A stretch of DNA of 15,933 nucleotides from a virus (Duplodnaviria; Heunggongvirae; Uroviricota; Caudoviricetes): IMG/VR virus record IMGVR_UViG_2667527666_000007. One strand, written 5' to 3'. The position numbers were made by a program. This document shows positions 3,001-6,000 of the stretch, in pieces; the stretch's first letter is position 1, and each line of letters begins with the position of its first letter.

Positions 3001-6000
3001 TTACGGTGCACCATTGAAAATGCCACAGATGCATTAAATGCCATAAAGAAAGCGAATACTGATTCAAATCGGGGATAAATAATCATGAGAACATATTTAT
3101 CTGGCTTGACTGCCAGCGGTTATGCACACCCAAAAATTATCCCCGGCGCTATTTATCTGGATAAGAACGGTAACAGAGTAACGGTAAAAGAACTGATGTT
3201 TGACCGTGTGTATTTTATTCGTGATGGCTATTCATTTCATAGTTCGCTGAACGTGGAGATCTTTATTAGCAGATTCAGGCGGGAAATCCCGCCTTCCAGA
3301 AATAACCATGTGCCATGTATGGATGTTGATAAAAAACTACAGGAACTGAAAAACATGATTGCCGCGTGGAGAGAGCAGAAATGAAAAAAGCGCCAAATTT
3401 AAAACACCAGCCACGTGACAAAATGACGGAAGTCATCATTTTTGCGGGTAGTGATGCGTGGGCACATGCGAAGCAGTGGCAGGAACAGGACGGGCGACTG
3501 GCTGGCGATAACGTGCCACCTGTCTGGCTTGGAGAGCAACAACTTGCCGAACTGGACAACCTGCAAATCGTACCGGACGGACGCTATCGCGTGCGTCTCT
3601 ATCAGGCGGGGTTATTGCGTTCGGGGCTTGTTAATACCATCGGGCAGAAACTGGCAGCGGCAGGTGTCAGGGATGCTGATTATTACCCTGAAGGAATGCA
3701 CAGCCAGAAACGGGAGAACTGGCGCGAATATCTGGAACGTGAACGGGCAGAGCAGGCGGAAAAGAAAAAGGTAGTTGAACTGCCTGTAAAGAAAAAAGAG
3801 CGGGTAAAAGACGATAACGCTTCATCACTGGCGCTTAACCAGATGGGAGCAAGTCAACGCGGCGAAGTTCTCCTGGCACATTATGGCGGTGAACTGGCGA
3901 TTCATGCTGACTCTGACACTGTTCACTATTACAACGGCGTTGTATGGGAGCCAGTACAGGATAAAGAATTACAGCGAGCTATGGCACAGATTTTCATTGA
4001 TGCGGAGATCAGCTATTCGCAGAACGCCATTAAATCGGCGGTCGATACCATGAAGTTAAGTTTGCCTGTAATGGGGAATACAGCCCGTAACCTGATTGGA
4101 TTCAGTAACGGTGTTTTTGATACCCGGACAGGCGATTTTCGGGAGCATAACAAAAACGACTGGTTGTTAATTGCCAGTGAATTACCTTTCAGCCCACCAG
4201 CAGAGGGGGAAACGCTGGCAACACATGCGCCGAATTTCTGGAAGTGGTTACGCCGTTCGGTGGCTGAGAATGACCGCAAGGCGGATCGCGTACTGGCTGC
4301 ATTATTCATGGTGCTGGCGAACCGGTACGACTGGCAGTTATTCATTGAGGTAACAGGTCCAGGGGGAAGTGGTAAAAGCGTGATGGCGGAGATTTGCACC
4401 ATGCTGGCGGGTAAGGCCAACACGGTATCGGCAAGCATGAAGGCGCTGGAAGATGCCAGGGAACGCGCGTTAGTGGTTGGCTTTTCGCTGATTATCATGC
4501 CGGATATGACCCGTTACGCTGGTGATGGCGCAGGAATTAAGGCCATTACAGGCGGTGACAAGGTGGCAATCGACCCGAAGCATAAAGCGCCATACTCAAC
4601 GCGTATTCCGGCGGTTGTGCTGGCGGTTAACAACAGCGCCATGTCATTCAGTGACCGCAGCGGGGGGATTTCACGTCGTCGGGTGATATTCAATTTTTCG
4701 GAGGTTGTACCGGAAAACGAACGCGACCCCATGCTGGCAGAAAAAATAGAAGGAGAGCTGGCGGTTGTGATTCGCCACCTGCTTACTCGTTTTTCTGACC
4801 AGGACGAAGCTAAACGCCTGCTGTATGAGCAGCAGAAATCAGAAGAAGCTCTGGTGATAAAACGCGAGGGCGATTCGCTGGTGGACTTCTGCGGCTATCT
4901 CATGTCGTCGGTAATGTGTGATGGTCTGTTAGTGGGTAATGCCGAAATTATTCCGTTCAGTCCGCGCAGGTATCTTTATCACGCCTATCTGGCATATATG
5001 AGGGCACACGGATTCGGTAAACCTGTAACACTGACGCGCTTCGGTAAAGATATGCCGGGGGCAATGGCGGAATATGGCAGGGAGTATATGAAACGGAAAA
5101 CGAAGCACGGTTTGCGTTCAAACGTGACACTGACGGAGGAATCAGAAGACTGGATGCCATCATGTGTATCGGTCACTAATGACGATAGCAAAAATTAAAC
5201 TTATGGAATAACTGTTCACCACTGTTCACCCTGTCATAAATATCTTTTGTATCAGTATGTTATAGGGTGAACAGTTATTTATGAACTGTTCACCAAACTA
5301 TTCACTGTTCACCTTTTTGATTGTTTATTGAGCTTCAAGGGTGAACAGTGGTGAACAGTTGGTGAATAGTTTTTGTGAAACTGTTCACCCCTTAACATTA
5401 TGAATTAAAAGATAAAATATCAAAAGGTGAACAGGTGAAGGGTTAAAACGCAAAAATTTTAATTTACTGCTGTGAGATAAAGCCTATGACAGCGAAGCAC
5501 ACAAAAAAATCACAATCGCACGCCCTTGATTTGACGGAACACTGGTTAAGGGTGTCGATAAAAATCATCGACCGCAACGCCGGGGAAGGATATGCGAAAG
5601 CACATCCCGAACTGATTAGCTCATTCATGACAACGGCAGCTGCAAACTTTGCCACGCTGACAGAACGGGAGATCGCAGAAGCAGAACAGGTAACAACCAT
5701 CAACGTTAAAACCGGAGAGGTGGAATCATGACAGCACAGATAGCGGCTTACGGGCGGCTGGTGGACGACCCGCAGGTAAAACAGACCAGTAAGGGCACAC
5801 CGATGACGCTGGCGCGTATGGCGGTATCGTTGCCATGTAGTCAGGCGCAGGATGGGCAGGCGACGTTATGGCTATCGGTCATCGCATTTGGTAAGCAGGC
5901 CGACTTCCTGGCTAAACATCAAAAAGGCGACGTTGCCAGCGTATCCGGCACGATGCAGGTCAGCCAGTGGACCGGACAGAACGGGGAAACGCGGCAGGGT

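What the first reader, a model, noticed from the sequence alone, without database searches (positions are those of the whole stretch)
5212..5434. Bidirectional 9-bp iteron array immediately downstream of the primase-helicase (candidate ori)
About ten copies of CTGTTCACC/GGTGAACAG occur in both orientations with AT-rich spacers, including tandem pairs and an inverted pair flanking a 7-bp AT spacer. This is the standard architecture of an initiator-binding origin placed next to its rep gene, and it explains why the ORF-free 290 bp is retained.
Basis: partly seen in the sequence, partly recalled or inferred. Interest (0 to 1): 0.5.

Follow-up and report, generated by a model that had tools for sequence, protein, structure and literature searches.

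The report
Iteron replication origin of phage satellite
The repeat cluster is real and is almost certainly the replication origin of a phage-satellite island of E. coli, built from the same 8-base protein-binding word as the origin of the classic satellite phage P4; this is a well-understood kind of element, not a new one.

Summary
Nine exact copies, one 1-mismatch copy and two degenerate copies of CTGTTCACC lie in 5212-5441, in the 287-bp gap after the rep gene. That is far beyond chance.

The window is a capsid-forming PICI (EcCIEDL933-like) inserted next to phoQ.

The array is not a loose scatter. It is two ~100-bp units in inverted orientation: FF-43-R-21-F(f)F, a 26-bp spacer, then RRR-21-F-44-R(r). 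Each unit aligns at 75-80% identity with the annotated P4 origin core, which uses the same "type 1" octamer TGTTCACC.

The Rep C-terminus matches the solved P4 alpha origin-binding winged helix (1KA8, E=1e-24).

The same layout sits 3' of rep in EcCICFT073, whose rep-ori was shown experimentally to drive replication. There the word is TGTCTACC.

Across 80 Enterobacterales loci fetched with Rep (85 analysed in all), five iteron words occupy the same layout. Among the 74 loci that could be classified, each word pairs with its own wing motif in Rep, without exception.

Sites are phased at ~10.6 bp. The least stable 25-mer of the whole window lies in the right unit.

A structured RNA is not supported.

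One correction: Rep shows no detectable primase domain.

Verdict: ordinary Rep-dependent origin, a new member of a known kind.

The parts
3381..5198 (+). rep: alpha-like initiator made of D5_N, an SF3 helicase and a C-terminal winged-helix origin-binding domain. Its N-terminal ~150 aa are of unknown fold, with no primase motifs.
   Evidence: Pfam D5_N, DUF5906 and Pox_D5. 51% identity to P4 alpha aa 320-771. 48% identity to EcCICFT073 Pri-Rep. The ATG at 3381 matches the RefSeq annotation of the nearly identical gene (97.7% over the C-terminal 310 aa) in L003. N-terminus.
4869..5159 (+). Winged-helix origin-binding domain of Rep (aa 502-598, counted from the GTG at 3366).
   Evidence: phmmer hit to PDB 1KA8, the P4 alpha origin-binding domain, E=1e-24.
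5088..5123 (+). Wing segment MKRKTKHGLRSN of the winged helix. It is the candidate determinant of iteron specificity.
   Evidence: This segment partitions perfectly with iteron class in 74 loci spanning 5 classes, while the rest of the domain stays conserved.
5212..5313 (.). Left origin unit: F-10-F, 43 bp of AT-rich spacing, R, 21, then F-(f)-F.
   Evidence: Its reverse complement aligns to P4 ori 9309-9416 at 75% over 110 nt, and to the right unit at 73% over 112 nt. The layout is conserved in relatives.
5212..5220 (+). Iteron CTGTTCACC (exact).
5222..5230 (+). Iteron CTGTTCACC (exact).
5231..5265 (.). AT-rich spacer of the left unit; candidate unwinding element.
   Evidence: 5240-5264 is the 5th least stable 25-mer of the window.
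5266..5274 (-). Iteron (exact, inverted).
5286..5294 (+). Iteron (exact).
5299..5306 (+). Degenerate, truncated iteron TATTCAC(T). It corresponds to the middle copy of the F-11-f-8-F triplet seen in relatives.
5305..5313 (+). Iteron (exact).
5314..5339 (.). Central 26-bp AT-rich spacer between the two facing iteron triplets; the dyad centre.
   Evidence: Its length and sequence vary among relatives.
5340..5441 (.). Right origin unit: R-10-R-11-r, 21, F, 44 bp of AT-rich spacing, then R-8-(r).
   Evidence: 80% identity over 76 nt to the P4 ori core. blastn E=4e-6 to the P4 feature annotated 'origin of DNA replication / ori type 1 repeat'.
5340..5348 (-). Iteron (exact).
5350..5358 (-). Iteron (exact).
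5361..5369 (-). Iteron CTATTCACC (1 mismatch).
5381..5389 (+). Iteron (exact).
5390..5425 (.). AT-rich spacer of the right unit; best candidate for the site of first melting.
   Evidence: 5397-5421 is the least stable 25-mer of the entire 15.9-kb window, dG -23.2 against a mean of -34.3 kcal/mol.
5426..5434 (-). Iteron (exact).
5434..5441 (-). Degenerate iteron GGTGAAGG. Relatives carry a full GGTGAACA at this position.
5442..5466 (.). A/T-rich block conserved across genera, directly after the last iteron. Its role is unknown (origin flank or promoter element).
   Evidence: Alignments. 10th least stable 25-mer of the window.
5486..5731 (+). orf81 (phrog_1231, unknown function). First gene after the origin, syntenic in EcCICFT073.
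5728..6138 (+). Island-encoded single-strand DNA-binding protein; probably part of the replication module.
   Evidence: Pfam SSB, E=4e-17. Same position in EcCICFT073.

Best explanation
The array is the vegetative replication origin of an EcCIEDL933-like capsid-forming PICI.

After helper-phage induction, Rep is made. Its C-terminal winged-helix domains bind the 8-bp iterons (TGTTCACC). Ten to twelve sites, spaced in whole helical turns, put the bound proteins on one face of the DNA. The sites fall into two ~100-bp units that mirror each other. Binding and oligomerisation distort the DNA and open an AT-rich 35-bp spacer, most likely 5390-5425 and/or 5231-5265. The SF3 helicase domains then assemble as rings on the opened strands. 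The dyad layout suggests one ring per unit and therefore two diverging forks. The island SSB and host Pol III take over from there.

Shown here: the repeats and their architecture; homology to the P4 origin and to the tested EcCICFT073 origin; the Rep domain identity; and the covariation between iteron word and wing motif.

Inferred: binding, the melting site, double-ring loading, and who primes. This Rep has no recognisable primase, so host DnaG or an unrecognised activity must prime.
For: Repeats. 9 exact and 1 near-exact copies lie in 223 bp, and 0 of 200 shuffles reach the observed count.

Homology to P4. The P4 record annotates TGTTCACC as 'ori type 1 repeat' in its rep_origin and in crr. 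The right unit is 80% identical to the P4 ori core, and the reverse-complemented left unit is 75% identical over 110 nt. An independent blastn hit to the P4 'origin of DNA replication' gives E=4e-6.

The protein. Rep aa 502-598 match 1KA8, the P4 alpha origin-binding domain, at E=1e-24. Rep is 51% identical to alpha across the helicase and winged-helix regions.

The tested sister element. EcCICFT073 sits at the same roxA(ycfD)-phoQ site with the same gene order (DUF4222, rep, gap, a small ORF of comparable size, ssb, perC) and the same site layout, using the word TGTCTACC. Its rep-ori segment needed both rep and ori to maintain a temperature-sensitive plasmid (PMC6092414).

Conserved geometry. 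The layout F10F-43-R-21-F11F8F ... R10R(11R)-21-F-44-R8R recurs in Escherichia, Klebsiella, Raoultella, Kluyvera, Pectobacterium, Pantoea, Yersinia, Serratia, Xenorhabdus and Photorhabdus with five different words. All sites change in concert while the spacers remain alignable.

Covariation. The iteron class predicts the wing motif in 74 of 74 loci.

Conservation. Within the TTCACC class, iteron columns are 81% identical to the window against 58% for spacer columns (Mann-Whitney p=5e-9).

Phasing. Site centres fit a 10.5-bp period with R=0.81 (p=0.0016); the best period is 10.6 bp with R=0.89.

Stability. The least stable 25-mer of the window lies in the right unit.

Co-inheritance. Between this island and EcCICFT073, rep (from about codon 125 onward) plus ori (about 3745-5520) is diverged beyond blastn alignment apart from two short weak patches (72 and 147 nt, 78% and 69%), while the flanking genes are 88-94% identical.

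Exclusivity. No other iteron cluster exists in the island.
Against: No experiment exists for this allele or this island's origin. Everything rests on homology and comparative analysis.

In P4 itself the cluster next to alpha is crr, an auxiliary cis element, and initiation is at the distant ori (annotation). Proximity to rep therefore does not by itself mark the start site.

This Rep lacks any recognisable primase, so the P4 mechanism cannot be copied over in full.

The melting site and the double-ring loading are inferred only from thermodynamics and symmetry.

A second role as a Rep operator is not excluded.
Confidence: 0.9

Rival explanations
1. The array is only a crr-like auxiliary cis element (a replication enhancer or Rep loading pad), as in P4, and the real initiation site is elsewhere in the island.
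For: In P4 the iteron cluster immediately 3' of alpha is crr, and ori lies 4.5 kb away. Parts of the window units align to crr at 75-81% over about 60 nt.
Against: All TGTTCACC octamers of the window lie in 5213-5433. The only other <=1-mismatch hits are four scattered ones, which matches chance. Both units align better and over a longer stretch to the P4 ori core than to crr. The syntenic EcCICFT073 region sufficed, together with rep, for plasmid replication (PMC6092414).
Confidence: 0.04
2. The array is mainly a transcriptional operator. Rep, or another island protein, binds the repeats to autoregulate rep or to control the downstream orf81-ssb-perC-capsid operon.
For: The array lies between two co-oriented genes with no terminator between them. 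The P4 ori likewise sits just upstream of the late sid operon. A conserved A/T block follows the last iteron. Many iteron initiators also autoregulate (general knowledge).
Against: No sigma-70-like promoter was found in 5000-5800. Ten to twelve phased sites in two mirrored units enclosing the least stable DNA of the window is origin architecture rather than an operator. The homologous P4 and EcCICFT073 sequences are origins. This could be an additional function but not the only one.
Confidence: 0.04
3. The array encodes a conserved structured small RNA, or a single-strand hairpin signal, made from the long imperfect palindrome.
For: The single strand folds into a very long hairpin, -109 kcal/mol, z=-9. 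Iteron-iteron pairs show apparent compensatory change.
Against: Rfam gives only eukaryotic miRNA hairpin models far below their gathering scores. No promoter or terminator was found. The RNAalifold consensus keeps only iteron-iteron helices, with a covariation term of -1.4. The 43 spacer pairs of the hairpin are 59.1% paired against 59.3% in shuffles, and their covariation score of 0.120 is below the shuffled 0.125. The pairing is therefore just a by-product of one word used in both orientations. Tandem direct copies and 10.5-bp phasing have no meaning for a hairpin.
Confidence: 0.01
4. The array is a packaging (cos/pac) site or a recombination site of the island.
For: It is repeat-rich, AT-rich, non-coding DNA in a packaged element.
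Against: The packaging module (HNH, TerS, TerL) lies 5.5 kb away, with its own intergenic gap at 11113-11400. The same repeats occur in P4 as origin and crr, not as cos. The same Rep-ori module is found in satellites with different packaging modules (L003). The repeats co-vary with Rep and not with terminase or integrase.
Confidence: 0.01

Closest known systems
Satellite phage P4 origin system: ori with type-1 iterons TGTTCACC, crr, and the alpha protein
   Same: The 8-bp iteron is identical. The right unit has the same order and spacing as the P4 ori core (P4: R10R11R-22-F-43-R10R; window: R10R11r-21-F-44-R8r) and is 80% identical to it. The helicase and winged-helix parts of Rep are 51% identical to alpha, and the solved alpha origin-binding domain 1KA8 matches at E=1e-24.
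   Different: P4 splits the system: one unit at ori, and two direct units (crr) 4.5 kb away next to alpha. Here two inverted units are adjacent, 26 bp apart. This Rep lacks the alpha Zn-ribbon and Toprim primase part. The host element is a capsid-forming PICI, not a P4-like satellite: it has no sid, psu or delta.
Origin of the E. coli PICI EcCICFT073 (Fillol-Salom et al. 2018, ISME J, PMC6092414)
   Same: Same chromosomal insertion site (roxA/ycfD-phoQ). Same gene order around it: DUF4222, rep, a 288-bp gap, a small ORF, ssb, perC. Same iteron number, orientation and spacing. Two sets of iterons flank AT-rich DNA. The rep-ori segment was shown to drive plasmid replication.
   Different: The iteron word is TGTCTACC rather than TGTTCACC, and the wing of the Rep winged helix differs (VKGVTQTN against TKHGLRSN). 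rep from about codon 125 onward plus ori is not alignable by blastn apart from two short weak patches, although the flanks are 88-94% identical. EcCICFT073 is a classical PICI without its own portal or terminase.
SaPI origins and self-loading Rep helicases (S. aureus pathogenicity islands; PriRep5 structure 7OLA)
   Same: The origin lies immediately 3' of rep. There are 6-12 short iterons in both orientations around AT-rich DNA. The initiator is a helicase with a C-terminal winged helix that reads the iterons (PMC9371898). The SF3 core of this Rep matches 7OLA at E=3e-10.
   Different: SaPI iterons are 5-6 bp and unrelated in sequence. No DNA-level homology was found. The overall protein similarity is remote.
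Dyad-symmetric origins of eukaryotic viral SF3 helicases (SV40 large T antigen, papillomavirus E1)
   Same: This is an analogy only, from general knowledge: short binding words in inverted arrangement, flanked by easily melted AT-rich DNA, on which an SF3 helicase assembles as two oppositely oriented hexamers.
   Different: There is no sequence relationship, and the origin-binding domain has a different fold. Double-hexamer loading is not shown for P4 alpha or for PICI Reps.

Membership tests
P4-type origin (alpha protein with type-1 iterons) | Clustered type-1 octamers TGTTCACC in both orientations. | tested here: met
   9 exact, 1 near-exact and 2 degenerate copies.
P4-type origin (alpha protein with type-1 iterons) | DNA homology to the P4 ori core. 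| tested here: met
   80% over 76 nt and 75% over 110 nt, z about 17-24 against shuffles. blastn E=4e-6.
P4-type origin (alpha protein with type-1 iterons) | Cognate initiator with the alpha-type C-terminal winged-helix origin-binding domain and an SF3 helicase. | tested here: met
   1KA8 at E=1e-24; D5_N, DUF5906 and Pox_D5; 51% identity to alpha.
P4-type origin (alpha protein with type-1 iterons) | Bipartite arrangement: ori and a distant crr, both required in cis. | tested here: not met
   There is a single cluster, with both units adjacent and no second cluster in the island.
P4-type origin (alpha protein with type-1 iterons) | The initiator carries its own DnaG-like primase (Zn motif plus EGYATA Toprim). 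| tested here: not met
   No CxxC or EGxxTA motifs; hhalign probability 0.15% against alpha N-termini; no Pfam or NCBIfam hit for aa 1-160. The fold search was inconclusive.
PICI replication origin (Gram-negative PICI type) | Located immediately 3' of the rep (pri-rep) gene. | tested here: met
   rep stops at 5198 and the first iteron starts at 5212. The definition is in PMC6092414.
PICI replication origin (Gram-negative PICI type) | Two sets of iterons flanking AT-rich DNA. | tested here: met
PICI replication origin (Gram-negative PICI type) | Same layout as an experimentally validated PICI origin (EcCICFT073). | tested here: met
   Site order and spacing match, the position is syntenic, and the word differs.
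PICI replication origin (Gram-negative PICI type) | The rep-ori segment drives autonomous, Rep-dependent replication. | not testable with these tools
   Requires the plasmid-maintenance assay used for EcCICFT073.
Capsid-forming PICI (host element) | int, alpA and rep, plus its own capsid, protease, portal, head-tail connectors, HNH, TerS and TerL, and no tail genes. | tested here: met
   Pfam hits in that order. The description of EcCIEDL933 is in bioRxiv 10.1101/2022.09.08.507074. 97% identical islands occur in O157:H7 and other genomes.
Known bacterial small RNA (Rfam) | Match to a curated covariance model at its gathering score. | tested here: not met
   Only eukaryotic miRNA hairpin models, at 45.7 bits or less against thresholds of 53-249.

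The most novel reading that the evidence does not exclude
The compact two-unit dyad origin directly 3' of rep may be the general form for the whole alpha/PICI Rep family. It is seen with five iteron words, with three different Rep N-terminal modules, and in 38 of 44 primase-bearing alpha-type loci sampled. On this reading, P4's long-puzzling requirement for a distant crr is the same dyad pulled apart: in alpha orientation, P4 reads left-type unit (ori), then the 4.6-kb alpha operon, then right-type units (crr). If so, crr supplies the second half-origin, a second helicase-loading site brought back by looping. In addition, a ~12-17-aa wing segment of the winged helix would act as a swappable code that sets origin specificity, and hence incompatibility, among co-resident satellites.
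Probability: 0.45. Interest if true: 0.4.

Novelty: new member of a known kind. Interest (0 to 1): 0.25.

Why it matters
For annotation. This 240-bp element occurs in about 600 of 5,426 complete E. coli genomes, and RefSeq lists no feature there. It can now be labelled as the satellite origin, with a defined Rep/iteron specificity class.

For satellite biology. It shows that a capsid-forming PICI, a classical PICI and P4 draw on one shared Rep-ori family, and that its specificity cassette (winged-helix wing plus iterons) is exchanged as a unit. This qualifies the published view that the PICI origin organisation is shared with no other replicon and that PICIs and P4 are unrelated in replication.

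In practice. The five natural word/wing pairs give a ready set of probably orthogonal origins, and a handle on replication incompatibility between satellites in one cell.

None of this changes the basic picture. It is an ordinary iteron origin.

Tried and rejected
(1) Literature search for the octamer itself returned only unrelated primer hits. One search failed on term length.

(2) The primary P4 papers and the review (PMC372931, PMC413647) are not held. P4 facts therefore rest on the GenBank annotation, on secondary citations and on my own knowledge.

(3) Two guesses at the CFT073 coordinates found a lambdoid prophage and core genes, and one request was over the size limit. The right coordinates came from the paper's Table S1.

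(4) I tried to learn whether the TGTTCACC allele was among the origins drawn in Fig. 2a of PMC6092414. Figures are not held, E. coli ED1a is not in the collection, and the ATCC 25922 PICI proved to carry the CFT073-type Rep. This stays unresolved.

(5) The published att core GGACATATTT is absent from the window. A 58-bp similarity at 14334-14391 to the int-proximal end of EcCICFT073 probably marks attR instead.

(6) Rep N-terminus. There is no family hit apart from PHROGs of unknown function. The single-sequence AlphaFold model is mediocre (pLDDT 66), with a generic alpha/beta sandwich. Foldseek against the PDB gives nothing better than E=0.015 and TM<=0.4. This is inconclusive, so it supports neither 'primase' nor 'not a primase' at the level of fold.

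(7) Promoter and terminator scans of 5000-5800 found nothing.

(8) The small-RNA/hairpin idea was rejected.

One degenerate site was re-placed by 2 nt, which left the result unchanged.
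Full report
OBSERVATION

The 287-bp gap between the stop codon of the 3381-5198 gene and the next ATG at 5486 holds nine exact copies of CTGTTCACC/GGTGAACAG and one copy with a single mismatch. All ten lie in 5212-5434. In the whole 15.9-kb window there are 14 matches at <=1 mismatch against 3.35 +/- 1.7 expected, and none of 200 dinucleotide shuffles reaches 14. Every exact TGTTCACC octamer of the window is in this interval. Two more degenerate copies (5299-5306 and 5434-5441) become evident once relatives are aligned. GC falls to 28-37% from about 50% in the flanks.

CONTEXT

The window is a complete phage satellite. Pfam and NCBIfam give, in order: integrase (1-1230), AlpA (1515-1784), an Icd-like piece, DUF4222 (3085-3384), Rep, the array, orf81, SSB (5728-6138) and PerC. 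These are followed by HK97-type major capsid, prohead protease, portal, head completion and connector proteins, HNH, TerS and TerL, and then the chromosomal phoQ.

This is the gene content and order of the capsid-forming PICI EcCIEDL933 (bioRxiv 10.1101/2022.09.08.507074). Islands about 97% identical occur in O157:H7 and other E. coli. The array with its flanks is present at >=80% coverage in 591 of 5,426 complete E. coli genomes. In every listed hit it lies at the 3' end of the same 'DNA primase family protein' gene, and nothing is annotated over the array itself.

ANATOMY

The copies are not scattered. Writing F for CTGTTCACC on the + strand and R for its complement, with start-to-start distances, the array reads:

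F-10-F-43-R-21-F-(f)-19-F | 34 | R-10-R-11-r-21-F-44-R-8-(r)

. The left unit (5212-5313) is the mirror image of the right unit (5340-5441). Reverse-complemented, it aligns to the right unit at 73% over 112 nt, spacers included. The two iteron triplets face each other across a 26-bp AT-rich spacer.

The centres of the ten good sites fall on a 10.5-bp lattice (resultant 0.81; 0.16% of random non-overlapping placements do as well). The best period is 10.6 bp, with a resultant of 0.89. The sites therefore lie on one face of the helix.

The least stable 25-mer of the entire window is 5397-5421, inside the 44-bp spacer of the right unit. The equivalent spacer of the left unit ranks fifth.

HOMOLOGY TO A CHARACTERISED ORIGIN

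A tblastn search with Rep finds P4 alpha, 51% identical over alpha residues 320-771. The P4 GenBank record annotates TGTTCACC as 'ori type 1 repeat' in two places. One is the rep_origin, at 9310-9413. The other is crr, the 'cis required region for replication', which lies immediately 3' of alpha.

The right unit aligns to the P4 ori core at 80% identity over 76 nt with the same site order (P4: R10R11R-22-F-43-R10R). The reverse-complemented left unit aligns at 75% over 110 nt. Both scores are 17-24 sd above shuffles. An independent blastn of the gap against 50,697 phage records returns only the related induced element vB_KppS-Ant and the P4 feature 'origin of DNA replication | ori type 1 repeat', at E=4e-6. 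The crr units are related too, but over a shorter stretch (81% over 58 nt).

Rep residues 502-598 match the crystal structure of the P4 alpha origin-binding winged-helix domain, 1KA8, at E=1e-24. The helicase core also matches the SaPI5 PriRep structure 7OLA. From my own knowledge (Ziegelin et al. 1993, EMBO J 12:3703; Yeo et al. 2002, Mol Microbiol 43:855; both cited but not readable here), alpha binds exactly these octamers through this domain.

HOMOLOGY TO A TESTED PICI ORIGIN

Fillol-Salom et al. 2018 (PMC6092414) state that in Gram-negative PICIs the region 3' of rep is the origin, with two sets of iterons flanking AT-rich DNA. They showed that a temperature-sensitive plasmid carrying EcCICFT073 rep-ori survives at the restrictive temperature only if both rep and ori are intact.

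EcCICFT073 sits at the same roxA(ycfD)-phoQ site and has the same local gene order. Its 288-bp gap shows the same layout, F9F-48-R-20-F11f9f-33-r11r-...-r9R, but the word is TGTCTACC.

The two islands are 88-94% identical in int-alpA, in orf81-ssb-perC and in the last ORF. From about codon 125 of rep through the origin (about 3745-5520) they cannot be aligned by blastn, apart from two short weak patches of 72 and 147 nt. The cognate initiator-origin pair has evidently been exchanged as one cassette.

COMPARATIVE TEST

A scan of one genome per species with a Rep alignment returned 80 Enterobacterales loci. Added to the window and four loci fetched earlier, that gives 85 loci whose 450 nt after the rep stop were examined. 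The dominant repeated octamers fall into five classes:

- TGTTCACC: 66 loci, including P4, Klebsiella, Raoultella, Pectobacterium, Pantoea, Xenorhabdus and Photorhabdus.
- TGTCTACC: 7 loci.
- TCTCCACC: 8 loci, including Yersinia, Rahnella and Erwinia.
- TGTCCGCC: 3 loci, all Serratia.
- TGTCCACC: 1 locus.

The layout and spacings are the same in all classes. In a multiple alignment, every site switches word in concert while the AT-rich spacers stay alignable. Within the TGTTCACC class, iteron columns are 81% identical to the window and spacer columns 58% (Mann-Whitney p=5e-9).

On the protein side the winged-helix domain is well conserved except for one segment, window MKRKTKHGLRSN (aa 575-586). 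Its sequence and length partition exactly with iteron class in the 74 loci that could be classified (alignment):

- TTCACC: ..K.G[ILM][RQ]SN
- TCTACC: ..GPDKGR..SN or .KG..QTN
- CTCCAC: STKGN[MI]RSN
- GTCCGC: ESKKKATRGRIQSN
- GTCCAC: ATRGPSKGNYQSN

This is what a protein-DNA recognition pair should look like. It is the strongest evidence, short of an experiment, that Rep reads these repeats.

RIVALS

The strand does fold into a long hairpin (z=-9), but that follows from the dyad symmetry alone. Four results count against an RNA:

- Rfam yields only eukaryotic miRNA hairpin models far below threshold.
- No promoter or terminator consensus is present.
- RNAalifold retains only iteron-iteron helices.
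- The 43 spacer pairs of the hairpin are paired in 59.1% of cells against 59.3% in shuffles, with no excess covariation. The iteron pairs 'covary' only because the word changes everywhere at once.

A crr-like auxiliary role with the true origin elsewhere is unlikely. The island has no second cluster, and the EcCICFT073 homologue sufficed for replication.

An operator role could coexist with origin function, but it does not explain 10-12 phased sites in two mirrored units around the most meltable DNA of the window.

A packaging site is unlikely. The terminase module is 5.5 kb away, and the repeats track Rep rather than the terminase.

CORRECTION ABOUT THE PROTEIN

Rep has D5_N, an SF3 helicase and the winged helix. 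Its first ~150 residues match no Pfam or NCBIfam model. They lack the two CxxC motifs and the EGYATA Toprim motif of alpha, and hhalign against alpha-type N-termini gives 0.15% probability.

The family carries three interchangeable N-terminal modules on the same chassis:

- alpha type with primase motifs, about 800 aa.
- the window type, about 570-605 aa.
- a third type, about 580 aa.

All three are followed by the same origin layout.

A single-sequence structure model (pLDDT 66) is a generic alpha/beta fold with no significant PDB match. 'Primase' is therefore a name inherited from P4, not a demonstrated property. Priming at this origin is an open step.

MECHANISM

Shown: the sites, their geometry, the homologies and the co-variation.

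Inferred, by analogy with P4 alpha and with the SaPI self-loading Reps (PMC9371898): the winged-helix domains occupy the phased iterons; oligomerisation opens an AT-rich spacer; and SF3 rings load, plausibly one per unit to give two forks. The island SSB and host polymerase then continue. The primer comes from host DnaG or from an unrecognised activity.

COMPARISON AND NOVELTY

This is the P4/PICI type of iteron origin. It works like both the P4 origin and the EcCICFT073 origin, and it is homologous to both.

It meets the defining features of a Gram-negative PICI origin that can be tested in silico. It fails two features of the P4 system proper: the split ori/crr arrangement and the alpha primase.

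I could not establish whether this exact allele was among the origins drawn in Fig. 2a of PMC6092414. I therefore class it as a new member of a known kind rather than as already known.

Two observations may be of modest specialist interest.

[quoted passage not shown] It shares both the iteron and the alignable origin DNA with P4.
- 38 of 44 primase-bearing alpha-type loci in the sample have the compact two-unit origin next to alpha, with terminal R sites at a fixed offset of about 202 nt. P4 is among the exceptions. Read in alpha orientation, P4 is 'left-type unit (ori), alpha operon, right-type units (crr)'. P4's need for crr may therefore simply be the need for the second half of a dyad origin. 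The sample is phylogenetically narrow, and this remains a hypothesis.

VERDICT

The element is an ordinary Rep-dependent iteron origin of a known satellite family. Interest is low to moderate.

Noticed in passing
window 3381-3845 (Rep aa 1-155 from the ATG); also L016, L017, L023, L034 and P4 (L001): The alpha/PICI Rep family carries three unrelated N-terminal modules on one D5_N/SF3/winged-helix chassis: the alpha primase type, the window type (VIIFAGSDAW...) and a third type (LFSCVY...). The window type has no detectable primase motif and no significant fold match, so what primes replication is unknown.
   Followed up: partly
window 5442-5466: The A/T-rich block GTTAAAACGCAAAAATTTTAATTTA directly after the last iteron is conserved across genera, where it reads CTTAAACGCATATTTTTTAATTTTAT. 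It could be an origin flank, a bending site or a promoter element for orf81-ssb. No sigma-70 consensus was found.
   Followed up: partly
window about 3745-5520, against L006 (EcCICFT073): The island is a mosaic. int-alpA (88%), orf81-ssb-perC (94%) and the last ORF (89%) are shared with EcCICFT073. rep from about codon 125 onward plus the origin is not alignable by blastn apart from two short weak patches. This points to a cassette swap of the cognate Rep-ori pair, with the right breakpoint just inside orf81.
   Followed up: partly
L003 (E. coli WCHEC035148, 716109-716479): A 100% identical origin, with a nearly identical rep (97.7% over the C-terminal 310 aa), sits in a different kind of satellite at another chromosomal site near tRNA-Ile/mug. 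That element has a protease-capsid fusion gene and no portal or terminase. The replication module therefore moves between satellite types.
   Followed up: no
window 14334-14391: This 58-bp stretch is 81% identical to the sequence just upstream of int in EcCICFT073 (L006 1352-1409), so it is probably the attR repeat. The published att core GGACATATTT is absent from the window, although the insertion site (phoQ side) is the same.
   Followed up: partly
window 1842-2765: Only the last ~50 residues of this 307-aa ORF match a known family (Icd-like cell-division inhibitor). In related islands the annotated gene is about 67 aa, so the long ORF is probably over-called. A minus-strand YlcI/YnfO-like gene may lie here, as it does in L003 and L006.
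   Followed up: no
window 3888-3896 (-) and 3919-3927 (+): Two 1-mismatch iteron copies in inverted orientation lie 31 bp apart inside the rep coding region. This is within the chance expectation for the window (3.35 such hits), so it is probably meaningless.
   Followed up: no
window 6029-6421: A PerC-family transcriptional activator gene (E=7.5e-45) lies just downstream of ssb. PICI-encoded PerC homologues are reported to act on the LEE pathogenicity island.
   Followed up: no
window 11113-11400: This 288-bp non-coding gap between the HNH and terS genes is the likely place for the island's cos site. It was not examined.
   Followed up: no
L010 (Escherichia ruysiae): Here the iteron sites after rep appear in a rearranged order (r11R-75-r8R-89-f9F-45-r11R-68-R11R), unlike the canonical layout. 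The Rep is otherwise 76% identical to the window's and carries a TCTACC-type wing.
   Followed up: no
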